A DNA stretch of 38,200 nt from a virus (Duplodnaviria > Heunggongvirae > Uroviricota > Caudoviricetes), in IMG/VR virus record IMGVR_UViG_2703719355_000022, positions 1 through 38,200 of that record. One strand, given 5' to 3'. The notes beneath the pieces are model-generated. The model had not been told where the DNA came from and did no database searches. It saw nothing but the letters and a program-made list of their open reading frames with translations. The position numbers and the translations under genes are program-made. Shown one piece after another: positions 3,009 to 37,169 of this stretch. Position 1 is the first letter of the stretch. Every line of letters begins with the position of its first letter.

Positions 3009-3218
3009 AATTGCGTTAGGCAGCGTAAGCAAGTTTCATAGTAGTTTCCTCTAAAATAATAAGTTCACTACTATTTATCAGAGAAAATTGTCTTACTATT
3101 GCATTCTCTATCTGGATGTGGGTATAGGCGGGATTGAATACGGCAAAACTGAAACATTCCACTACTGCAATAAATCACTAAACAATATAAAGAATATTGC
3201 AAGTGTGGAGTGGAACTA

Positions 3219-4709
3219 ATGCAAGATATTAAAATTCATTTTCAAGATTACAGTTTCGTTAAGGTTGATTGCTCTCCTTCTATCGGAATGGAATTAAGAG
3301 ATTATTTCTCGTTTGAGGTTGAAGGGGCTAGGTTTAGCCCCCGTTACAAGTATTCTGGCTGGGATGGACGAATAAGACTGTTTACGCATGAAAACACCCT
3401 ACCAATTGGACTATTAAAAACGTTGGGTGTCTTTGTTAAAAATATGGGCTATTCAGTCTGGATTGACCCGCGATTGCTTGAGAAGGAAGATGTAACCAAA
3501 GACGCGATTAATGAATGGATTGATTCCCTAGAAGTGTATTCCGGTTCCAATAAAATCAATCCTTACTGGTATCAGCGTGAAGCAGTCTTTCTGGGTATTC
3601 ATAATCGCCGTAGAATGCTGGTTCTTCCTACCAGTGCCGGAAAGTCATTGATTGCTTGTATGCTGTCTCGCTGGTACTTAGAGCATTACACCGGAAAAAT
3701 TCTAATCATTGTTCCGACTACATCGCTAGTGGTTCAAATGAGGGATGATTTCATCGATTATAGGCTATTCCCTTATGAAGCAATTCATACAATGATGAGT
3801 GGTAGCGGGAAACATCCGGGAGATAGGCTAATCACTGTTTCAACATGGCAATCAGCTTGCAAGATGCCTCCTGAATGGTTCCGACAATATGGAATGTTGA
3901 TAGTTGATGAATCACATAAGGCTAGTGCCAAAAATATTACCAATATCATCAATGGAATGAATCATTGCCAGTTCAAAATCGGTATGACTGGTTCCCCGAA
4001 AGAATCAAAATGCCATTTAATGCAGTATGTCGGGCTTTTCGGTGATATTTCTAAGATCGTTAGCATTGACCGCCTGATGGAAGAAGGTCAAGTGACGAAA
4101 CTGAAAATCAACTGTCTTTTCCTTCGTTATACCGATGAGGAATGTAGCGCGGTTAAGGGTAGAGAATATGCGGAAGAGATCAAGTATATTACGTCTAACC
4201 CACGACGTAATAAGTTTGCTTGTAATTTGGCGCTAAAACTCGCTAAGAAGGGCGAAAACGTATTCCTGATGTTCCGCAATACTAAGCACGGAAAACTTAT
4301 GTATGATGCGTTACAGAAGGTACACGACAAGGTTTATTATATTGACGGTGGAGTTAAGACAGAAGAACGAGACGAGTTCAAAAAATTAGCGGAAGGGGAA
4401 ACAGGGATCATTTGCGTTGCATCCTATGGTGTGTTCTCTACTGGTGTTTCTATCAAGAACTTGCACCATGTTATTTTCGGGCATCCAGTTAAAGAATCAA
4501 CCATTGTTAGACAGAGTATCGGTCGTGCATTGCGCAAACATGGTTCTAAGGATATTGCTACCGTTTGGGATCTTATAGATCATCTGTGTATATTCGGTCG
4601 TAACGGAAAAATCAAGCATAAAAATTATGCGGTAAAACATGCACTTGAGAGAATCCGCTATTATTTGACCGACAAGTTCAGCTATGCAACTAAAACAATT
4701 GCTATATAA
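3219..4709 (+). CDS. uvsW: UvsW-like superfamily-2 DNA helicase
   Basis: N-terminus MQDIKIHFQDYSFVKVDCS...GWDGRIRL and motifs LVLPTSAGKS (Walker A-like), IVDESH (DExH), VASYGVFSTG, WDLIDH match my recollection of T4 UvsW along the whole length; ATG at 3219 with GGAG upstream. Confidence 0.85.
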   Translation: MQDIKIHFQDYSFVKVDCSPSIGMELRDYFSFEVEGARFSPRYKYSGWDGRIRLFTHENTLPIGLLKTLGVFVKNMGYSVWIDPRLLEKEDVTKDAINEWIDSLEVYSGSNKINPYWYQREAVFLGIHNRRRMLVLPTSAGKSLIACMLSRWYLEHYTGKILIIVPTTSLVVQMRDDFIDYRLFPYEAIHTMMSGSGKHPGDRLITVSTWQSACKMPPEWFRQYGMLIVDESHKASAKNITNIINGMNHCQFKIGMTGSPKESKCHLMQYVGLFGDISKIVSIDRLMEEGQVTKLKINCLFLRYTDEECSAVKGREYAEEIKYITSNPRRNKFACNLALKLAKKGENVFLMFRNTKHGKLMYDALQKVHDKVYYIDGGVKTEERDEFKKLAEGETGIICVASYGVFSTGVSIKNLHHVIFGHPVKESTIVRQSIGRALRKHGSKDIATVWDLIDHLCIFGRNGKIKHKNYAVKHALERIRYYLTDKFSYATKTIAI

Positions 4710-5491: not shown

Positions 5492-6097
5492 TTAAACGAA
5501 GTTGATTTTACCCATGAAGTGCTTTTTCATCTTCTTCTGGATATTCTTCTTCATCGTTTTCTCATTATCTTTCCAACTACCCATGATGTTACTACGGTCT
5601 GTTTTCTTCAACACTGCAACAAGTCGCTTCCCTAGCTTTTTCTTGTTCTTCATGTCGGCTTTAACGGATGGATCGAGAAGCAGTATTTTACCAGTCTTAG
5701 ATTTTGTGGTTACATACTTCCCTATTTTCTTACCGTTTCTGAGTTGTGGAATGTTACCAAACTGGTTAGTTCGGTCATCAGTTACAGGAACAAATTTCTC
5801 AATATTATTACCACCTTCAAAGTAATATTTTAAGTATTTTTCCTGATTCTTCATGATGAAAACACTATGGTAAGACGTTTTACCGCTTGAGCGTATCCGG
5901 TTGTATGAATTGACCGCTTTCTGTGTGAACTTGGTCGGTCGATCTATCCTTGAATTGACTTTCTTCTGCAACTTTACCCGCTCATCTATGACCGCTAAAC
6001 CCAAATCCCTATGAAAGCTATTACTAGCTTTCTGTTTCCAACTCTTGATATCTTTTTTTACTTTATCAATATTGGATGTGATTATTGGATTAGCCAT
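5492..6097 (-). CDS. hypothetical lysine-rich basic protein (201 aa)
   Basis: ORF with AGGGGG ribosome-binding motif; very Lys-rich composition; function unknown. Confidence 0.45.
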   Translation of the reverse strand: MANPIITSNIDKVKKDIKSWKQKASNSFHRDLGLAVIDERVKLQKKVNSRIDRPTKFTQKAVNSYNRIRSSGKTSYHSVFIMKNQEKYLKYYFEGGNNIEKFVPVTDDRTNQFGNIPQLRNGKKIGKYVTTKSKTGKILLLDPSVKADMKNKKKLGKRLVAVLKKTDRSNIMGSWKDNEKTMKKNIQKKMKKHFMGKINFV

Positions 6098-6098
6098 G

Positions 6099-6269
6099 TT
6101 AGCCCCCTAATAACGAAAAGACCCCCGCCAGTGTCCTGAGTAATTGTTCATCCACGGTCATAGCCGGGAGTTCAAGCCCAAAGGACGTAAGCAGAGGTCT
6201 AATTGCTACGTTATAAGTGAGGGCGATAATCAAGAGATAACCAAAATATTTCTTAAGTTTATTCTTCAT
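6099..6269 (-). CDS. small membrane protein (56 aa), possibly lysis-associated
   Basis: Internal ATG at 6269 with AAGGGGTG upstream; N-terminal hydrophobic helix YFGYLLIIALTYNVAI; no lipobox. Confidence 0.35.
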   Translation of the reverse strand: MKNKLKKYFGYLLIIALTYNVAIRPLLTSFGLELPAMTVDEQLLRTLAGVFSLLGG

Positions 6270-26337: not shown

Positions 26338-28266
26338 TTAAAAGTTATTTACCCACCCACCACGACGCACAGGACGCGCCATAGGACGACGATTAGGTTT
26401 GTGATGAGTGATTGGCTTAGTTTCTTCGATTTGCTCGTTAGAATGTGATTTAGGAGCTTCTACGGTTGCTTCTGGTTCACGATTCAGCTTTTCTTTCATT
26501 GCAATGAGCTTATCCCATGACATTTTTGAAAGAACATAGCGAGAAGCCGCATAGCTATAAACCAGACAGTCGAGCGCCTCGTTTCGTGTCGCACCTGGAT
26601 TTTTTACCCAACGTGTTCCAGTAACAGTACGCTTGATGGATTCACTCAAAAGCTGATCGAGATAATCATCAGGAACGGTTTCTGATATCTCTAAACCAAT
26701 ATGAGGGTTTTCTTTCAAGTTGCGTGTTAATAGCTCACGAATAGCCGTTTTACCCACGTTAACGCCCAACATAAGCAACTCATGACCGCCCGTGGTAGTT
26801 GGTTTCACTGGAATGATTGGAGCAGTACCAGATGAACTACCTTTGATTGCGTGTAAGTTCTTCCACTTACCACCGCAAATACGGTATCCGGCTTGAGTGA
26901 ATCGACCGTTCGATGTATCAAGGAAGCTGGCGAGCATAGGAACACGATCACCCGATACAGTAGTAAATTTGGTTTTATGGAAGTTGATTAATCTGTCCCA
27001 TACAGGAGATTCATATCGTTCACAGTTATGGTCGTAAAAGCTGCGATGATCCAGAATATAAATCTTATCCTTTGCCACGCCCATGATCGTAGTTTCTGCG
27101 CGATCTAATTGCTGGTCAGTACCCGCACACAAGAAAATCACGTCATCAGGGATATTCTCGATAGAAACATCTGTTTTAAGTTCTTCCAGTTCGTTTACTT
27201 CTACTGCCGTTTCCTGATCATCGTATACAGTGCCGAGAACGGTATTATAAAAACTTTGTAAATCAAATGTTTGCCACGCTTGAGAGAAGTCAGAGACACA
27301 TGCTTTGATAGAGCTAAAAGGTGAATATAGACGGCTGATCCAGAATCCTGCTACATCACTTTCACGGGTAGCTCTCCATTCACCTTGTGCAACCGCTCTA
27401 ATGCGATCCCCTTCTGACCAATCAGTCTGGCAATGAGGACACACATAACGGGCGCTTTCAACACATGGCAGATTGCGACCATCCTGATTTTTCCACTCGA
27501 ACTTAACATTTTCCCACTCGATCACCTGGTGTTTCCCGCAATGCGGACAAGGAACAAAGAATTTACGCTGATCACTTGATAACCATTGTTGATTAATCGG
27601 TCCCAGCTTAGTGGTCGGGGTACTGGAAACGATAATTCTTGCTTCATCCCCGAAAGTGGTTGCGCGGTTAGCCGCAAGTGCAATCGGATCGCCCTCTTCA
27701 CTAGCACTGGCAGCATCACATTCATCGAGCAGAATCAACGGGCTGGTTTTTGAACGCAAGGTTGATGGGCTAGTAAGCGATACCATGTAAAGAAAATGAT
27801 TAGTCTTAAGCTGAATCTGACTATTGTTATTAACAGCGTTGCGATCATTCTTGTCGGTGATTGCTTCGCGTAATGCCGGACATGCTTCAATGGCTGGTCG
27901 GATCTTCCCGCTTAGGTACTGAGCGGTTTCCTTCGTGGTTGCTTGGCCTATGATGATATTGCTGGGATCGTTAGCTATCTTATTGAATAATATACCATTA
28001 AGGATGGAAGTTTTGCCGATCTGGGCACTTGTACAAAAAATGTACTTTTTCTTATTCTCTAAGAAAGGAGCATCAATCATGCCTTTCTGAAAGCTGGTTA
28101 ATTTAATTTTAGCGCCAGCTTGTGGTCCATCCACTAGGATCATGTTTTCCTCGCACCATTCAGATGGTAAACGCTTAATTGGCGGTCGGATATGTTTTGA
28201 TACTTCGTTAAAAATTCGCTTGAGTTTAAATTTATTTGAGAGTTTTTTCACCGTGATTATCCTCAT
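26338..28266 (-). CDS. terminase large subunit, lambda gpA family, 642 aa
   Basis: Motifs [29 protein letters not shown] and C-terminal RNEALDC recall lambda gpA; Walker A-like GKTS; first gene of the minus-strand operon. Confidence 0.9.
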
Positions 28267-28321: not shown

Positions 28322-28924
28322 ATGCTAATTAATCAGCAACAAAGAGATGAATTAGAATTAGCCTTGTCTTGTACCGATCATGAATATCGTTTGCCAGTAA
28401 AACATAAGCACTTAAAGACTGATTACACAACATCCGGTTTTAGCCGTGAGGAAGCGAAAGAGATTTTAATAGAATTTTACCGTGATAATGGTTATACAGA
28501 CGTTCACAACTTCTTTAAGAAGCATAGAACATCACATACAGAGTTTCGGAGAGTCCGAGATTGGTTTGATTTTGATATCAAGCGTTATTATCGCATTGAT
28601 GACGGTCCTATCTATCGGTTGCAGTGGAAGCCGATCCGAGAAGTGTTGAAACAGAAGAGATTGAATCACGCAATTACACGCTATCGTAACGTGGCTTTCA
28701 AGAAAGGCTATGGTGATACAAGGGAACTATTCGTTGAACTAGCTAACGTGAAATATAGCCACTATTACAACGATCCTACAGGGTTCTTCGAAGTGCTTCG
28801 CAAGGTTGATATTAGTCGGGGTACATATTATTCACGGCTGAGGAAGTACGGGATTAAGGCAGAGTTCTTTATGTCGGTTGACGACTCACCCATGTTCAAG
28901 ATAAAATCTAAGTCCTCTAAATAA
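28322..28924 (+). CDS. hypothetical basic protein with two helix-turn-helix-like repeats, 200 aa
   Basis: AAGGGGG ribosome-binding motif; two internally similar segments (EILIEFYRDNGY...FRRVRDWF and ELFVELANVKY...YSRLRKYG); Arg/Lys/Tyr-rich. Confidence 0.4.
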   Translation: MLINQQQRDELELALSCTDHEYRLPVKHKHLKTDYTTSGFSREEAKEILIEFYRDNGYTDVHNFFKKHRTSHTEFRRVRDWFDFDIKRYYRIDDGPIYRLQWKPIREVLKQKRLNHAITRYRNVAFKKGYGDTRELFVELANVKYSHYYNDPTGFFEVLRKVDISRGTYYSRLRKYGIKAEFFMSVDDSPMFKIKSKSSK

Positions 28925-28959
28925 TATTGAGAAATCACTATTGTTTGGAGGAAACTACT

Positions 28960-29187
28960 ATGACTACTAAAGCTACTCGCGGTCGCCCTGCCCGTTTTAA
29001 CGCTGAACAGATGGCTGATATTGCCTACGCTTACTATACAGCGGATCGTGGTAAGGAAGCGAAAGAACAGATTCTTAGTGAACATGGGATCTCAATCGCC
29101 CAATTCTATAAGAATATGAAGAAGTTAGACATTAAATTCTATGTTCAGATCGGTGATGGTCAGATCGTAGAAGCAACAGGTTTTTGA
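28960..29187 (+). CDS. small DNA-binding protein with N-terminal GRP motif resembling small-terminase N-terminal domains, 75 aa
   Basis: GGAGG 7 nt upstream of ATG at 28960; N-terminus TRGRPARFNAEQMADI resembles the GRPxxYxPE start of some small-terminase DNA-binding domains; too short for a complete small terminase. Confidence 0.4.
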   Translation: MTTKATRGRPARFNAEQMADIAYAYYTADRGKEAKEQILSEHGISIAQFYKNMKKLDIKFYVQIGDGQIVEATGF

Positions 29188-31868: not shown

Positions 31869-32153
31869 AGTGGAAATCCTCTAAAAGAAAGTGAATCAAT
31901 CTAATATTATTTATAAAGAGAAAATTCTTGTTATTATGGAAAGAGTGGTCTGGTAGAGTCCAAAACTGGTCTGTACTTGAAAGGTGATTGGATTCAGTCG
32001 GGCTAGCCCTCCTTCATAGATTTGATTAAATCATCACCAAAACGAAGAAGTATCTTTATAATATAAGAATCTTTCTTTTGTAGAAATAATAATCGAACAA
32101 GATGGACGCTCCCTGAGCGTCTGCGAAGCATATCTAATTCCTTCCAGTATCAT

Positions 32154-32242
32154 CAAAGTGATCTAGAATCAGTTTGTTTTAAAGTGATTGTAATACCTTT
32201 ATCTTGGAAGTGATTTAACTACCATCTTCAAAGTGATCTTGA
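32154..32242 (+). repeat. four direct copies of AAGTGAT(Y)T spaced 24-26 bp
   Basis: GTGAT cores at 32158, 32184, 32209, 32233; outer copies are the near-identical 19-mers TCAAAGTGATCT(A/T)GAATCA. Confidence 0.6.
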
Positions 32243-32316
32243 ATCATCATGTTAAAATCCCTTCCTGAATGATTCGAAGCAGATTACTCGCGCCCCGCAG
32301 GGCGCATAATATCTTT

Positions 32317-32354
32317 GTAGGTATATTGGTTTGATGGTATGTAGGTATATTGGT
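32317..32354 (+). repeat. direct repeat GTAGGTATATTGGT x2 (24-bp period)
   Basis: Identical 14-mers at 32317-32330 and 32341-32354; preceded by palindrome GCGCCC-CGCA-GGGCGC at 32290-32305. Confidence 0.6.
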
Positions 32355-32408
32355 CTGTAGGTCTGGATCGCTTCTAAGCCCCGTCATTACTGGTTTCCCC
32401 ACTTTGAA

Positions 32409-32662
32409 ACGGGGACGGGAAAGAGACGGGGAAGGGATACCACGGGGACAGGTCGGGGATAACATGGGGATGATACGGGGACACCACGGGGAAAGCATTT
32501 AAAATCATATCCTTACATAAGAATACGCATCTAATACCGGGGATTTTACGCGGGGATGGCGGGGAAACTACCCTAATCCGGGGGATTTTGCTTCCAAAAC
32601 GGGGATGAACGCGGGGACGGTGACGGGGATACATCTTCTAAAGTGGGGATATCGCGGGGAAA
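32409..32662 (+). repeat. G-rich array of at least 16 same-orientation CGGGGA motifs, first seven largely phased at 11 bp
   Basis: GGGGA starts at 32411, 32428, 32444, 32455, 32466, 32477, 32488, 32539, 32552, 32561, 32581, 32601, 32613, 32625, 32645, 32656; flanked downstream by an AT-rich stretch. Confidence 0.8.
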
Positions 32663-32865
32663 CCTTTAAATTCATTCAAATATTTTGATAGAAAATTCTT
32701 GTATATTATTTAACCAAAAAATCATCAAAAATCGCTGTAACTTAATGATTTAAAAGGGATTATCAAAAGGTCGCCGTGCTATAATAGGTTATAAAGGTTG
32801 ATAATCATTATTCGCCATTTTCACACAAAAATTTTGATAGCCTTTTCTCGCTTGGGTCAAGTGTG

Positions 32866-32894
32866 TTGACTTCTGTCAAGGATTATTTTATACT
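32866..32894 (+). promoter_or_regulatory. sigma70-type promoter (TTGACT-17-TATACT) reading into the plus-strand early genes
   Basis: -35 at 32866-32871, -10 at 32889-32894; flanked by GTCAA/TTGAC half-sites at 32856-32879. Confidence 0.55.
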
Positions 32895-33029
32895 TTTTCT
32901 CGTTGGTAGGGGTTGAAATTTTCAAAACAGTCCCCATATAGATGATAAGCAAGATTTTCTCTCTACTAAATACATGTGAGAAATGATTGTTCACTTCTGA
33001 AAATCTCCTGATTCACTGTTAATTAATAC

Positions 33030-33058
33030 AGCACTGGTTAGATATACAGTGCTTTTTT
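33030..33058 (+). terminator. hairpin plus T-run (AGCACTG-N10-CAGTGCT-TTTTTT); terminator or attenuator
   Basis: 7-bp stem followed by six T; a similar hairpin CCACTG-N11-CAGTGG-TTTT at 33117-33145. Confidence 0.5.
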
Positions 33059-33236
33059 GGTTGAATAATGTACGAATTGATTAATTATTAATCTTCTCTT
33101 TAGCAATTCGTGCTCCCACTGATCGGATATACAGTGGTTTTACAGGGTTTTCTGAAATGACTTTTATAAATAGAAGTATCAAGGGCGAAAAGCTCTTTTT
33201 ATGAGAAAAAATAATCCACATTGTAGAGGATGTAAC

Positions 33237-33419
33237 ATGGCCAGAACTGTTAAATTTACTCGCGAGATTATGTTAGAGAAAGCAAAACGCTACTTTGAAC
33301 TGACGCCGGGAGTGAGGATTGAAGAGTGGTTTAAAAATGAAGGCATCGATAAATCAACCTTCCATAAACTCTTAAAGAAATATGAAATCAAGGTGAAGAT
33401 TGAAGCTACCGTTTGGTAA
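33237..33419 (+). CDS. hypothetical small protein, 60 aa
   Basis: ATG at 33237 with GAGGA upstream (track start 33201 has no ribosome-binding motif); basic helical protein. Confidence 0.4.
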   Translation: MARTVKFTREIMLEKAKRYFELTPGVRIEEWFKNEGIDKSTFHKLLKKYEIKVKIEATVW

Positions 33420-33518
33420 TCAACTTTGACTGAGAATTAAATTATGAAACTTTTAACCAATAAAAAAGCCCCCTTGCGGCAACAAGGAGGCTTCTACTTA
33501 ACATAAGGAATTACTACA

Positions 33519-34532
33519 ATGAAACAAAATAACTTCTCTATTACCGTTTACAGCAACACCGCAGACACCGCAAAATATCAGTACGATGCAGATATCGAAA
33601 TTCGTAACTATGGCAGCAACGAAGCCGACGAATTAACTATTGGCACTAATATTTATAAAGAAGAATCTATCGATTCTCTGTACACCACTCTCTATCATGC
33701 TGGTTCCGACTGGAAAAAAGAATACCGTGGTTTAGAGCGTAAGAAAGCTACTTTGAAAGCAATGGTTAAACCAGACCAGCGCGAAGTATATGCTATCGCT
33801 TACAAGAACGGCGACGAATCCTATGTAGTGTCTATCCTGCAAGATGAAGCTGGTAGCCTCTGGGGTAACATGATCCACGCTTCCCGCCGCGATGCTAAAG
33901 GCCGTTTCGTTAATGGTAAAGTTAAAAACTTTGCTCTGGCTTCTAGTGTTGTTGGTGCATGGTCTGATTGTGCTCACGGTGAGAAATTCAATATTTCTTT
34001 CTTCGTTTCCAACAAAGCTAAACTGAATGTTAACGCTGTTGATAAGGCAGTATGGAAAGAAACCACTAAAGAAAAAACCGTTTCCAACTACGAAGAAGAA
34101 TTACAGCAGCGTGATATTCAGATTCTGTCTGATGCGCATCGTGCTTTTGAGCAACGTCTTGCTGAGATGGAACGCAAATTCGCTATGCTGATGGAAGAAA
34201 ACATTAGTCTGAAAAAAGAAATTGAAGTTCTTGAAATCCGTGTAGAAGAACTGGAAGCAAAAGAAGTTAAAGCGCCGGAAGTTAAAGAAGTTGAAGCGGT
34301 AGCAGTAGTTCCGGCAGCTACCCAGGAAGAAGCGAAAGAAGAAAAAGAAGCACCGGAGGCGGTTACTGTTGATCAGCCGATTATCAAACCAGCGTTAACC
34401 GTAGTTTCTTGTGATATTTCTGATGCCAGCTTAAACAACCTTCTTGATGTAGAAGAAGGATATAAACCATATGTTCCAACCATTCCGGCTATGGATGAGA
34501 TGGACCGCGAATTACTTGATTTTGCAGCTTAA
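33519..34532 (+). CDS. hypothetical protein with central coiled coil and acidic C-terminal tail, 337 aa
   Basis: AAGGAA ribosome-binding motif; heptad-like region around residues 190-250; C-terminus MDEMDRELLDFAA; function unknown. Confidence 0.5.
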   Translation: MKQNNFSITVYSNTADTAKYQYDADIEIRNYGSNEADELTIGTNIYKEESIDSLYTTLYHAGSDWKKEYRGLERKKATLKAMVKPDQREVYAIAYKNGDESYVVSILQDEAGSLWGNMIHASRRDAKGRFVNGKVKNFALASSVVGAWSDCAHGEKFNISFFVSNKAKLNVNAVDKAVWKETTKEKTVSNYEEELQQRDIQILSDAHRAFEQRLAEMERKFAMLMEENISLKKEIEVLEIRVEELEAKEVKAPEVKEVEAVAVVPAATQEEAKEEKEAPEAVTVDQPIIKPALTVVSCDISDASLNNLLDVEEGYKPYVPTIPAMDEMDRELLDFAA

Positions 34533-34559: not shown

Positions 34560-35561
34560 ATGAACATTTACGCAATCGACAACAAAAAACTCAACAAAGA
34601 AGAAACTGAATCACTGGTAAACGTTCGTCTGACCTCCACCTTTGACGGTGGAGTTACCGCAAACTTCAAATTCACCGATAATCTTAACGGCGGTGATTAT
34701 TATCAGGAATTGTTTTCTATTCAGAATCCCCGCGCTAAAGATTCTGAGAATGTCATTAAAGAAATCATGAAACACGGTATCAAGCTGACGGTAGAAGAAC
34801 ATACTATGATTAACAGCTTCATCAATAAAACTGGTGATCGTCTGGTTTATTCTGTGGTTGGTTATGAACTTAGTGGGTTTTACGATGAAGAGAAGAAAGG
34901 CGTTGCTATGGTTGTGATTAGCCGTGGTGGCGTCGCTACTGTCTTCGCTTTTGGTAATGTTGTTCAGGGTACGCCGAAAACATCAAACGTTTATACGATC
35001 CGCATTAAAGAAAATAGCTATTGCCGTTATAATCTGGCTTTGGTGTCTACCGACGATAACAGCGTTGAACTTAGCGACATGAAATCCTACACCTTCCCTA
35101 TCGATGTGGAAGGCAATTTAGGAAAAACTGTGTTTCAATTCTATGTGACAAAACCTAAAGTTCCAGCATGTATTGAAGACCACGACCATCAAGTTTGTGC
35201 ATATAAAGCCAATCTGGAAGCGATTAAGGCCAAAGAGAAAGCAGAGCAGGAAGAACGGGATCGCCCACGTAAAGAAGCAGAGGCACAAGCAAAACAGCTT
35301 CTAGGCCGATTTAACAGCATGAAGACTAAGATCAAGAATGCTAAAACGTGGGAAGATGCGGTTAAGTTCTATCATCAAGCTAATATTCTTTTGGTTGAAG
35401 TAGAAGAAGCGCGGGATCTGTGGGCTAGCTTAGATAAGAAGTACGCGCAACGTAGATCGCCAGCAACCTTACAGCCGATTGATGAACTGTGCAAACTTCC
35501 TAAGCCAGAAATTAAACATGAAATTAAGAAAGCAAGACCTACCCTTCGTTTGGTTGCTTAA
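34560..35561 (+). CDS. hypothetical protein, 333 aa
   Basis: AGAGGAA ribosome-binding motif; Lys/Glu-rich helical C-terminus; no recognised domain. Confidence 0.5.
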   Translation: MNIYAIDNKKLNKEETESLVNVRLTSTFDGGVTANFKFTDNLNGGDYYQELFSIQNPRAKDSENVIKEIMKHGIKLTVEEHTMINSFINKTGDRLVYSVVGYELSGFYDEEKKGVAMVVISRGGVATVFAFGNVVQGTPKTSNVYTIRIKENSYCRYNLALVSTDDNSVELSDMKSYTFPIDVEGNLGKTVFQFYVTKPKVPACIEDHDHQVCAYKANLEAIKAKEKAEQEERDRPRKEAEAQAKQLLGRFNSMKTKIKNAKTWEDAVKFYHQANILLVEVEEARDLWASLDKKYAQRRSPATLQPIDELCKLPKPEIKHEIKKARPTLRLVA

Positions 35562-36278: not shown

Positions 36279-36836
36279 TTACGACACATCAAATTCATCG
36301 TCTTCTTGTTCTTCTTCCGGTTCTTCCTGCTTCACTTCCTCATCTTCTGAGTATTCATCGTAGGCATCAAGATCCGGTGAAATCATAATATCCCCGATCT
36401 CATTCAAACGAGCGGAAATGATATCCTTCAATGTTTCTTTCAAAGTACGCTGATCCGTTGCAGCTTCCATAATTTTTAGAGTGTCTACCGTCGCCATCTG
36501 CATCATGGTCTGGCGTACATCACCACAAAATCCGGCTAGAACTGTTTCTACATAACCTACAGGAATCAGATCATTTAGTTCGGTGCGGTTCTTAAGTTCG
36601 ATGGCGTCCGCCTCCCCTCTCGCCTTTCTTAATCGTTCTTGTTGGATCTGCGCTTGTACATCAACTTCCCTAAGTGGGCTGATTATGTTTTCAATTACCC
36701 AGGTGATTGCTCTATCCCGTGGACAACGGCGGGTATTCGTATTATACGGAAGACCACGATCACGCCATTTCTGAACAGCCGGAAGGGAATACCCATACAT
36801 TTTAGATAATTCGGTTAAAGTTACTTCTTGCGTCAT
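36279..36836 (-). CDS. terminase small subunit, lambda Nu1-like, 185 aa
   Basis: N-terminal TLTELSKMYGYSLPAVQKWRDRGLPY and central ARGEADAIELKNR...YVETVLAGFCGDV match my recollection of lambda Nu1; ATG at 36836 with AGAGGA upstream; acidic C-terminus. Confidence 0.7.
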   Translation of the reverse strand: MTQEVTLTELSKMYGYSLPAVQKWRDRGLPYNTNTRRCPRDRAITWVIENIISPLREVDVQAQIQQERLRKARGEADAIELKNRTELNDLIPVGYVETVLAGFCGDVRQTMMQMATVDTLKIMEAATDQRTLKETLKDIISARLNEIGDIMISPDLDAYDEYSEDEEVKQEEPEEEQEDDEFDVS

Positions 36837-37169
36837 GAAACTATCCTCTGAGCTAAAAATATGCGTAATTGTATTTAGACGAAATACGCAATATAACGGC
36901 CTATAACGCAATTTAAGAAAATCCCATGTGACGGGGCGTTGAGAAGTGATTTAGCTCGTTGTAGGGCTTGTTTGGTGGCTTAACTAAACCAATTTGAAAA
37001 AGGCACAAGCGAGATTTAAACCGCGCCGGGCAAAACACGCCCTCTTTTACCACTTATCACAGCACCTTTCTGTTGTCAAGTCTTTTTTATCGAATATTTT
37101 AAATTTTTTCATCTTTTTTCTCGTGCATTCATCCGTTTTTTTCTCGGTCAAAATCAATGACTTGACCCG

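What the first reader, a model, noticed from the sequence alone, without database searches (positions are those of the whole stretch)
32409..32662. Array of 16 same-orientation CGGGGA repeats, partly phased at 11 bp, G-quadruplex-prone
Inside a 1.3-kb non-coding hub lie 16 copies of (C/T)GGGGA, all on the plus strand. The first seven form GGGG tracts separated by 2-8 nt (mostly 7-nt) loops, and five of the six spacings are exactly 11 bp. This fits a canonical G-quadruplex motif and also places sites on one helix face. An AT-rich stretch (32660-32830) follows. It resembles an iteron-type origin or a multi-site protein-binding array. I cannot match it to a known site, and it is compositionally unlike the rest of the window.
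Basis: seen in the sequence. Interest (0 to 1): 0.75.

Follow-up and report, generated by a model that had tools for sequence, protein, structure and literature searches.

The report
Prophage iteron array matched to its protein
The CGGGGA repeats are real and are most likely the docking sites, probably the replication origin, for an uncharacterised protein encoded just downstream in an E. coli prophage, because related prophages swap the repeat sequence and that protein's front end together.

Summary
The repeat cluster is real: 15 exact YGGGGA plus one CGGGGGA, all on the + strand, lie in 32410-32660, against 2 other + strand copies in 38 kb (Poisson P about 6e-41). The window is an E. coli siphovirus-like prophage with a serine recombinase that integrates in ycdX. 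Related prophages occur in 57 of 5,426 complete E. coli genomes and in Salmonella.

At the same position, directly 5' of a conserved AT-rich block, relatives carry same-orientation arrays of different motifs. These include ATCGCAAA, GTGTAGGT, TTTCAGGGGCAAA, GGAATCTTGGGG and others, mostly spaced 11 or 21-23 bp. Motif type tracks only the roughly 190-residue N-terminal domain of the protein at 33519-34532, an orphan family. Flanking genes reassort freely, including the small terminase subunit and a 60-aa HTH-like protein. Among type-A relatives the hexamer cores vary far less than the spacers (2/97 against 27/154 columns).

Best reading (about 0.5): an iteron-type origin with a cognate modular initiator. 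Binding and replication are inferred, not shown. The main rival is a multi-site operator for a regulator or repressor. The G-quadruplex motif is genuine but confined to this repeat type, so it is probably incidental. Packaging-site and partition-site readings are disfavoured. Verdict: new variant of a known kind, moderate interest.

The parts
32410..32492 (+). Repeat cluster 1. Seven YGGGGA copies start at 32410, 32427, 32443, 32454, 32465, 32476 and 32487, the last five at exact 11-bp spacing. Two degenerate copies are present (CGGGAA at 32416, AGGGAT at 32433). The cluster contains the window's only canonical G4 motif (32428-32491).
32493..32537 (.). 45-bp AT-rich spacer (73% A+T) between the two clusters. 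It holds a near-consensus IHF-like site, AATCATATCCTTA, at 32503-32515. The distant relative L132 has an exact IHF consensus at the equivalent place.
32538..32660 (+). Repeat cluster 2. Nine copies start at 32538, 32551, 32560, 32579 (CGGGGGA), 32600, 32612, 32624, 32644 and 32655, with spacings of 9-21 bp.
32661..32830 (.). AT-rich segment (74% A+T) that abuts the array in every E. coli relative. It is a candidate DNA-unwinding element and contains two ATTTTGATAG motifs (32682, 32831).
32866..32894 (+). Best sigma-70-like promoter of the hub (TTGACT-17-TATACT). Its -35 lies in a TTGAC-N4-GTCAA palindrome. It is conserved in all repeat types and presumably drives the operon containing orf60, the first protein and the second protein.
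32895..33236 (+). Conserved ~340-nt leader with three hairpin-plus-T-run elements. It is part of the 89-92% identical block that separates the array from its cognate gene.
33237..33419 (+). 60-aa HTH-like ORF. It is conserved, and identical alleles occur with different repeat types, so it is not the specificity partner.
   Evidence: WP_021515494 occurs with types B and C
33519..34532 (+). 'First protein' (337 aa), the proposed array-binding protein and candidate initiator. It has a neutral-to-basic N-terminal domain of about 190 aa that changes with the repeat motif, then a coiled coil, an acidic region and a C-terminus ending ...FAA.
34560..35561 (+). 'Second protein' (333 aa). It is an optional partner, present in types A and D and reduced to 69-80 aa or absent in types B and C. 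It has a coiled coil and a conserved ...RPTLRLVA C-terminus.

Best explanation
The array is a set of about 16 binding sites (iterons) for the N-terminal domain of the 337-aa protein encoded 860 bp downstream (33519-34532). Together with the AT-rich DNA inside it (32493-32537) and next to it (32661-32830), it most likely forms the vegetative replication origin of this temperate E. coli siphovirus-like prophage.

Proposed mechanism:
1. After induction, the conserved rightward promoter (32866-32894) expresses orf60, the first protein and, where present, the second protein.
2. Coiled-coil dimers or oligomers of the first protein load cooperatively onto the phased repeats and wrap the DNA.
3. This destabilises the adjoining AT-rich DNA.
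4. The acidic C-terminal half recruits host replication machinery, either through the second protein or directly.
5. The phage UvsW-like helicase (3210-4709) may also take part.

Shown here: the array, its conservation pattern, its strict co-variation with the protein's N-domain, and the modular architecture of the protein. Inferred: physical binding, DNA melting, and replication starting at this site.
For: 1. The cluster is far beyond chance and strictly single-stranded in orientation.

2. At the same position, directly 5' of a conserved AT-rich block, relatives carry same-orientation arrays of unrelated motifs:
   - type A: CGGGGA, 15-20 copies
   - L132: ATCG(C/T)AAA, about 18 copies, 8 of them at exact 11-bp phase
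   - type B: GTGTAGGT, 8 copies
   - type C: TTTCAGGGGCAAA, 9 copies
   - type D: GGAATCTTGGGG, GGAATCTAGGGG, GGAATCCGGGGG or GGAATCTTCCAAG, 4-5 copies at 21-23 bp
.

3. Motif type tracks only the N-terminal domain of the first protein. There is no BLAST similarity between types. Within type D, 58-65% protein identity goes with 1-2 nt motif changes.

4. Of 5,426 E. coli genomes, exactly the same 6 carry the A-type array and the A-type N-domain, out of 57 with the prophage family.

5. Flanking genes reassort across repeat types. The same TerS allele (WP_052915405) occurs with types B and C. The same orf60 allele (WP_021515494) occurs with B and C. The same 155-aa allele (WP_000611125) occurs with A and C. 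The 560-bp block between array and gene is 89-92% identical across types. So the pairing is maintained despite opportunity to recombine.

6. Within type A, 2 of 97 core columns vary against 27 of 154 spacer columns (Fisher 7.6e-5). Copy number changes by duplication.

7. The architecture matches iteron origins: 11- and 21-23-bp spacings, adjacent or central AT-rich DNA, and an IHF-like site. The gene order, a small HTH protein, then the modular binder, then an optional partner in an early rightward operon, parallels lambda cro-O-P (my knowledge).

8. No other replication initiator is detectable in the 38-kb element.

9. Hexanucleotide iterons flanking an AT-rich centre are documented for SaPI origins (PMC9371898). 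A non-helicase initiator with non-coding-region iterons in a serine-recombinase element is documented for PLE (PMC7145576).

10. The N-domains are neutral to basic (pI 7.7-10.0) and the C-terminal halves acidic.

11. In L132, two extra motif copies sit just after the -10 of the operon promoter, an arrangement like the autoregulation seen in iteron replicons.
Against: - The first protein has no detectable homology to any known initiator or DNA-binding family by Pfam, PHROGs, PDB sequence search or Foldseek.
- The structural model is only moderate (pTM 0.65).
- No conserved DnaA box lies near the array.
- All copies point one way, whereas SaPI origins have opposed iterons on the two sides.
- In the Salmonella relatives L128 and L133 the DNA after the array is not markedly AT-rich.
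- GC-skew minima coincide with the switch in gene orientation, so they are uninformative.
- Co-variation proves a functional pairing, or at least tight linkage. It does not prove replication, and a regulator with its operators would give the same pattern.
Confidence: 0.5

Rival explanations
1. The array is a multi-site operator, and the first protein is a type-specific transcription regulator. It could be an immunity repressor of the Mu c kind, which has an N-terminal DNA-binding domain, a coiled coil and a ClpXP-sensitive C-terminus and binds clusters of repeats separated by an IHF site. It could also be an activator or autoregulator of the early operons. Repeat-type swapping would then define heteroimmunity groups.
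For: - The same co-variation and core conservation apply.
- The protein has an N-domain, a coiled coil and a C-terminal ...AA tail.
- No repressor has been identified elsewhere in the element.
- An Ant/Rha-like protein is present.
- An IHF-like site lies between the two clusters.
- A weak promoter-like match (GGGACA-16-TAAAAT, 32478-32505) lies inside the array.
- L132 has motif copies directly after the -10 of the operon promoter.
Against: - The only strong, conserved promoter is 200 bp downstream of the array. It carries its own conserved palindromes (TTGAC-N4-GTCAA, and GGGG..CCCC at +10 to +40) that do not change with repeat type. Its control therefore looks type-independent.
- The gene sits inside the rightward early-type operon, not divergent from it.
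- Sixteen to twenty same-orientation sites over 250 bp that overlap no strong promoter are unusual for an operator.
- ssrA-like termini suggest unstable proteins, which is atypical for a maintenance repressor (inference).
Confidence: 0.25
2. The element acts at the single-strand or RNA level. The G-rich + strand could form a G-quadruplex or stabilise an R-loop, for example as a primer for replication later resolved by the UvsW-like helicase. Alternatively, a transcript carrying the repeats could be a decoy for an RNA- or ssDNA-binding first protein.
For: - A canonical G4 motif lies at 32428-32491 and is unique in the window.
- All repeats of all types lie on the same strand, and most are G-rich on the + strand.
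- A UvsW-type helicase is encoded at 3210-4709.
- The weak Foldseek matches include the ssDNA/RNA-binding Pur-alpha fold, at probability 0.2 only.
Against: - No canonical G4 motif occurs in the hubs of any other repeat type, and L132's ATCGCAAA repeat is not G-rich.
- No convincing promoter is found upstream of the array.
- There is no Rfam match.
- The fold matches are not significant.
Confidence: 0.07
3. The array is a packaging recognition site (cosB or pac) bound by the small terminase subunit.
For: - The phage has lambda-type TerL and Nu1-like TerS.
- TerS proteins bind repeated sites (my knowledge).
- The hub lies between the TerS and TerL genes.
Against: - An identical TerS allele (WP_052915405) occurs with type B and type C arrays.
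- A more conventional candidate cosB lies directly upstream of TerS: three ACGCAAT-like repeats at 36860-36915.
Confidence: 0.03
4. The array is a plasmid-type centromere (parC/parS-like), or another chromosome-organising site bound by the first protein, with no role in replication initiation or transcription.
For: - Arrays of short direct repeats at 11-bp phase are known for type II and type Ib centromeres (my knowledge).
- The co-variation fits any cognate binder.
Against: - No ParA, ParM or TubZ-type NTPase is encoded in the window.
- The element integrates by a serine recombinase. All 59 matches in complete E. coli genomes are chromosomal and none is on a plasmid.
Confidence: 0.05

Closest known systems
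Lambda-type origin module (ori iterons, O initiator, P helicase loader)
   Same: - Same-orientation, helically phased repeats sit next to AT-rich DNA.
- The initiator is modular: an N-terminal domain sets iteron specificity and a C-terminal part contacts a partner encoded immediately downstream.
- The module lies in the early rightward operon after a small HTH protein.
- Specificity modules are exchanged among relatives.
- The proteins look unstable, given their ClpX-type termini.
(My knowledge of lambda; features here.)
   Different: - Lambda has four ~19-bp iterons inside the O coding sequence. Here there are 4-20 sites with 6-14-bp cores in non-coding DNA, 860 bp upstream of the gene.
- There is no sequence or fold similarity to O or P.
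SaPI/PICI origins with Rep initiators
   Same: - SaPI iterons are very short, penta- or hexanucleotide, with 6-12 copies.
- They are split by an AT-rich region.
- Each island's Rep recognises only its own iterons (PMC9371898).
   Different: - SaPI Rep is a self-loading helicase with a C-terminal winged helix. Its origin lies just 3' of rep, and the iterons on the two sides point in opposite directions.
- Here the protein has no ATPase domain, all copies point one way, and the array lies upstream of the gene.
Vibrio PLE replicon (RepA_N initiator plus iterons in a non-coding region)
   Same: - The initiator has no helicase or primase domain, a DNA-binding N-terminal domain and an uncharacterised C-terminal domain.
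- The iterons lie in a large non-coding region.
- The element uses a large serine recombinase.
- Replication depends on accessory helicases (PMC7145576).
   Different: - PLE is a satellite, whereas this is a complete phage.
- There is no RepA_N match.
- The predicted fold is mainly beta with one long helix.
Phage Mu repressor c with operators O1-O3
   Same: - The protein has an N-terminal DNA-binding domain, a coiled coil and a C-terminal tail that governs ClpXP sensitivity.
- About ten repeated sites form clusters separated by an IHF site.
(My knowledge.)
   Different: - Mu operators overlap the divergent early and repressor promoters, and the repressor gene is adjacent to them.
- Here the array overlaps no strong promoter, and the gene is distal and co-oriented with the early operon.
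- There is no homology.

Membership tests
Iteron-type replication origin | Several direct repeats in one orientation, spaced at about one or two helical turns | tested here: met
   There are 16 same-strand copies, four consecutive spacings of 11 bp in cluster 1, and spacings of 11, 12, 20 and 21 bp in cluster 2. Relatives show 11-bp (L132) and 21-23-bp (types C and D) spacing. For this array alone the phasing statistic is weak (7 of 15, p about 0.1).
Iteron-type replication origin | AT-rich DNA-unwinding region adjacent to the repeats | tested here: inconclusive
   The 45-bp spacer is 73% A+T and the 170 bp after the array are 74% A+T, against 58% for the window. This holds in the E. coli relatives and L129 but is weak in L128 and L133. 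Actual unwinding cannot be tested.
Iteron-type replication origin | A cognate initiator is encoded nearby and its DNA-binding specificity matches the repeats | tested here: met
   Co-variation of motif and N-domain is strict across at least 8 specificities and in 6 of 6 against 0 of 51 E. coli genomes. Physical binding cannot be tested here.
Iteron-type replication origin | The initiator belongs to a known Rep, O or RepA_N family | tested here: not met
   No Pfam, PHROG or PDB sequence hit falls outside the coiled coil. There is no Foldseek hit at E<0.001. The family has only 8 representatives among 1.84 billion proteins.
Iteron-type replication origin | Host-factor sites (DnaA boxes, IHF) | tested here: not met
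   No DnaA box with one mismatch or fewer lies near the array in any relative. Only near-consensus IHF-like sites are present. Lambda-type origins also lack DnaA boxes (my knowledge), so this is not disqualifying.
Iteron-type replication origin | Replication initiates at the site and depends on it | not testable with these tools
   This needs marker-frequency analysis, a mini-replicon test or a deletion.
Canonical G-quadruplex motif | Four or more G3+ tracts with loops of 1-7 nt on one strand | tested here: met
   The motif spans 32428-32491 on the + strand and is the only match in the window.
Canonical G-quadruplex motif | The motif is conserved at the orthologous site in relatives, as expected if G4 is the function | tested here: not met
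   It is absent from the hubs of types B, C and D and of L132. It is present only within type A.
Terminase recognition site (cosB/pac) | The repeats co-vary with, and lie next to, the small terminase gene | tested here: not met
   An identical TerS allele occurs with different arrays. TerS is 3.6 kb away and has its own upstream repeats.
Mu-type repressor and operator | The repeats overlap the early and repressor promoters, and the repressor gene is adjacent and divergent | tested here: not met
   The strong conserved promoter is 200 bp downstream and only a 9/12 promoter-like match lies inside the array. The gene is 860 bp away and co-oriented. Promoter calls are consensus scans only.
Plasmid partition centromere (parC/parS) | An adjacent partition NTPase gene and an extrachromosomal lifestyle | tested here: not met
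   No ParA, ParM or TubZ domain is found. All 59 E. coli matches are chromosomal.

The most novel reading that the evidence does not exclude
The first protein represents a previously unrecognised family of phage origin-binding initiators, or at least sequence-specific array binders. It would have a new, mainly beta N-terminal DNA-recognition fold able to read cores as short as 6 bp. This domain is exchanged as a cassette together with its repeat array across a conserved 560-bp spacer. That would create a series of at least eight mutually orthogonal protein-array specificities in enterobacterial prophages, coupled to ClpX-type C-terminal tags and an optional partner protein.
Probability: 0.35. 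Interest if true: 0.65.

Novelty: new variant of a known kind. Interest (0 to 1): 0.55.

Why it matters
This prophage family occurs in about 1% of complete E. coli genomes and in Salmonella. One copy carries ISApl1-mcr-1. I found no description of the family in the searchable literature, and it has no recognisable replication initiator or repressor. The array-protein pairing points to a concrete candidate for its origin and initiator. It also offers a natural set of orthogonal short-motif DNA-binding modules from an orphan fold. If confirmed, the result would add a new initiator family to the small list known for temperate phages. It would also give simple, testable rules for incompatibility or immunity between co-resident prophages.

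Tried and rejected
- **DNA searches of the hub.** Searching phage and plasmid collections found nothing useful. There was no megablast hit, and the only hits were 70-80-bp matches to T-even intergenic DNA.
- **IMG/VR pattern scan.** Scanning for phased CGGGGA returned 110 loci. Apart from the window's own contig these were chance matches in GC-rich genomes or small clusters.
- **Closest cultured phage.** The closest phage by TerL is DCP80 (45% identity). Its record is T4-like, with no equivalent hub.
- **Representative genomes.** A scan with the 155-aa neighbour found nothing.
- **Homology searches.** Searches with the first protein, as a single sequence and as a profile, and with the second protein found only close prophage relatives. 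P0021 was a false positive, a glycosyl hydrolase with repeats.
- **Paralogy.** Paralogy between the first and second proteins was not supported by BLAST.
- **Rfam.** The hub gave no match.
- **GC skew.** It is confounded by gene orientation.
- **DnaA boxes.** None are conserved.
- **Literature.** Searches for the integration site and prophage found nothing relevant.
- **Rejected readings.**
  - A coding region across the array, because indels among relatives break any ORF.
  - A cos or pac site, because TerS does not co-vary.
  - A CsrA-type GGA decoy, because the other repeat types lack GGA.

Full report
**1. Observation**

The sequence at 32409-32662 contains 15 exact YGGGGA and one CGGGGGA, all on the + strand. 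They form two clusters.
- Cluster 1 spans 32410-32492 and has seven copies.
- Cluster 2 spans 32538-32660 and has nine copies.
- A 45-bp spacer of 73% A+T separates them.

Only two further + strand copies occur in the remaining 38 kb. The Poisson probability of at least 15 copies in 254 bp at the background rate is about 6e-41. Shuffling the 254 bp themselves never gives more than 5 copies.

The first six spacings are 17, 16, 11, 11, 11, 11, so four of six are 11 bp, not five. One copy has an extra G. Over the whole array only 7 of 15 spacings are in helical phase.

The G4 pattern (G3+ N1-7, four or more tracts) is present at 32428-32491 and is the only one in the window. The following 170 bp are 74% A+T against 58% overall.

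The hub 31869-33236 carries no annotated CDS in any RefSeq relative. 1-bp indels and a 44-bp duplication among close relatives exclude a conserved reading frame over the array.

**2. Context**

The window is nearly all of IMG/VR contig UViG_2778261515_000019, which is 38,450 bp. It is a temperate siphovirus-like E. coli prophage. Its recognisable genes are:
- a large serine recombinase (1248-2942) and a UvsW-type helicase (3210-4709);
- an endolysin, tail fibres, a tape-measure protein, major tail proteins, a protease-capsid fusion, a lambda-type portal and TerL, all on the minus strand;
- a Nu1-like small terminase at 36279-36836 on the minus strand.

In complete genomes the element sits in ycdX.

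The hub lies between a leftward group and a rightward group of genes.
- Leftward: a 155-aa protein, a 110-aa protein, a Rha/Ant-like protein and a 214-aa protein.
- Rightward: a 60-aa HTH-like protein, a 337-aa 'first' protein and a 333-aa 'second' protein.

No replication initiator, primase, polymerase or CI-type repressor is recognisable anywhere in the window.

**3. Comparative evidence**

Related prophages occur in 57 of 5,426 complete E. coli genomes, always on the chromosome, and in Salmonella.

In every relative examined, a same-orientation repeat array sits at the same place. In the E. coli relatives this is immediately 5' of a conserved AT-rich block that begins ...TTTTGATAGAAAATTCTTGTAT. 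The repeated motif, however, differs:

| Type | Motif | Copies |
|---|---|---|
| A (7 loci) | CGGGGA | 15-20 |
| L132 | (ACAC)ATCG(C/T)AAA | eight at exact 11-bp phase, an AT-rich spacer with an exact IHF consensus, then a looser second cluster |
| B | GTGTAGGT | 8 |
| C | TTTCAGGGGCAAA | 9 |
| D | GGAATCTTGGGG, GGAATCTAGGGG, GGAATCCGGGGG or GGAATCTTCCAAG | 4-5 at 21-23 bp |

Between types the array aligns at chance level, about 50%. The 560-bp block that follows it is 89-92% identical, which is more than the neighbouring coding genes.

**4. What co-varies with the motif**

Only the first protein co-varies with the motif. Its N-terminal domain of about 190 residues shows no BLAST similarity between types A, B, C and D. 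The coiled-coil and acidic half is shared or shuffled. Within type D, 58-65% identity goes with one or two base changes in the motif. The A-like protein of L132 (48% identity) goes with a completely different motif.

A megablast search with the A-type array and another with the A-type N-domain coding sequence each found exactly the same six genomes.

Neighbouring genes, in contrast, reassort across types:
- an identical TerS allele occurs with types B and C;
- an identical orf60 allele occurs with types B and C;
- an identical 155-aa allele occurs with types A and C.

The pairing therefore persists despite recombination on both sides, and despite a long, highly similar recombination substrate between the two partners.

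Within type A, 2 of 97 hexamer-core columns vary against 27 of 154 spacer columns (Fisher 7.6e-5). I conclude with fairly high confidence (about 0.8) that the array is a set of recognition sites for the N-domain of the first protein. This rests on inference from co-variation and constraint, not on a binding assay.

**5. The protein**

The family is an orphan. It has 8 representatives at E<=0.001 among 1.84 billion proteins, one of them a false positive. Pfam, PHROG and PDB sequence searches match only the coiled coil.

AlphaFold on the N-domain gave pTM 0.65. The model is a mainly beta domain with one long helix. It had no significant Foldseek match in PDB or BFVD.

The N-domains are neutral to basic (pI 7.7-10.0) and the remainder is strongly acidic.

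Most first proteins end in ...FAA...YAA...KAA or ...EAA. All second proteins end in ...LR(L/I)VA or ...SVA. These endings resemble ssrA-like ClpX recognition motifs (my knowledge, untested).

The second protein is also an orphan. It is full length only in types A and D. It is reduced to a 69-80-aa coiled coil with the same tail in type B and in the type-D-like Salmonella relative L128, and it is absent in type C.

**6. Mechanism proposed**

The best-fitting known kind is an iteron-type origin with a modular initiator. The evidence is:
- same-orientation repeats at one or two helical turns;
- AT-rich DNA within and beside the array;
- an IHF-like site;
- an initiator-like protein whose N-domain sets specificity and whose C-terminal part pairs with an optional downstream partner;
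- placement in an early-type rightward operon after a small HTH protein, as in lambda cro-O-P (my knowledge);
- extra motif copies at the operon promoter in L132, an arrangement like autoregulation;
- the absence of any other initiator candidate.

Short hexanucleotide iterons split by an AT-rich centre are documented for SaPI origins (PMC9371898). A helicase-less initiator acting on non-coding-region iterons in a serine-recombinase element is documented for PLE (PMC7145576). I put this reading at about 0.5.

Its weaknesses are:
- no homology to known initiators;
- no DnaA boxes;
- weak AT-richness after the array in two Salmonella relatives;
- no independent replication signal, because the GC skew is confounded by gene orientation.

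**7. Rivals**

1. **Multi-site operator for a type-specific regulator or Mu-like repressor (0.25).** The same co-variation would be expected and no repressor is otherwise identified. Against it, the only strong conserved promoter lies 200 bp downstream. That promoter carries its own palindromes, which do not change with repeat type. The gene is also co-oriented with the early operon.
2. **A single-strand or RNA-level role such as G4, R-loop or decoy (0.07).** The G4 motif is confined to type A, and L132's repeat is not G-rich.
3. **cosB or pac site (0.03).** TerS does not co-vary, and a triple ACGCAAT-like repeat directly upstream of TerS is a better candidate cosB.
4. **Partition centromere or other organiser (0.05).** No NTPase partner is encoded, and all E. 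coli copies are chromosomal.

**8. Novelty and verdict**

The feature is a new variant of a known kind. It is an iteron-like array with very short cores, matched to an orphan, modular binding protein. Array and protein are exchanged as a pair across a conserved spacer in an undescribed enterobacterial prophage family. The function as an origin remains to be shown. Induction coverage profiling, a mini-replicon test and type-swapped gel shifts would settle it.

Noticed in passing
window 32661-33236: The non-coding block between the array and orf60 is 89-92% identical across repeat types, more conserved than the flanking ORFs. It holds a promoter whose -35 lies in a TTGAC-N4-GTCAA palindrome, a GGGG-TTGAAATTTTCAA-CCCC palindrome at 32908-32936, and three hairpin-plus-T-run elements (33028-33058, 33112-33141, 33183-33205). 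This could be a leader or attenuator, or a small RNA. There is no Rfam match.
   Followed up: partly
window 33464-33495 (minus strand): A strong intrinsic terminator for leftward transcription lies between orf60 and the first gene. It is conserved in all repeat types (also L117 4960-4991, L120 5094-5123, L132 3942-3973). It could end an antisense transcript that covers the first gene's start.
   Followed up: no
window 36279-36915: The Nu1-like small terminase gene (36279-36836, minus strand) is separated by about 8 kb from TerL (26338-28266). Three ACGCAAT-like repeats at 36860-36915, directly upstream of TerS, look like a cosB.
   Followed up: partly
window 34510-34532 and 35540-35561; relatives: First proteins mostly end in ...FAA...YAA...KAA or ...EAA. 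All second proteins end in ...LRLVA...LRIVA or ...SVA. These resemble ssrA-like ClpX degradation tags.
   Followed up: partly
L116 about 6060-6122, compared with L117: The type-B first protein carries a C-terminal (Tyr-Ala)n run that is about 10 repeats long in strain C325 and 2-3 in strain H2. This is a length-variable coding repeat at the putative degradation tag.
   Followed up: no
window 32316-32365: Three TGTAGGT copies lie just upstream of the CGGGGA array and resemble the type-B repeat GTGTAGGT. Similar copies precede the array in L132. They may be vestiges of an exchanged array or secondary sites.
   Followed up: no
window 32104-32306: The left half of the hub holds four AAAGTGAT-containing repeats interspersed with GC-rich hairpins (32104-32123, 32291-32306). 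This part is length-variable and mosaic among relatives.
   Followed up: no
L120 6511-8123 (E. coli PE15, NZ_CP041628.1): ISApl1 and mcr-1.1 (colistin resistance) are inserted in this prophage family immediately downstream of the first gene.
   Followed up: no
window 28322-29187 and 33237-33419: The 60-aa ORF, a 75-aa ORF (28960-29187) and both halves of a 200-aa ORF (28322-28924) share an HTH-like motif (...GI.....F.K..KK..IK...). The 200-aa and 75-aa pair is transcribed against the surrounding genes and could be the missing repressor.
   Followed up: no
L001, L002 and L131 (phage DCP80, PQ671644.1): The closest cultured-phage TerL (45% identity) and a TerS homologue lie in a 141-kb record otherwise annotated with T4-like genes (motA, rIIA, ndd). 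This is either a striking mosaic or a chimeric assembly.
   Followed up: partly
L125 8960-9080 (E. coli OkiPb01713): One type-A prophage is flanked by a truncated hicB rather than ycdX, which suggests a second integration site for the serine recombinase.
   Followed up: no
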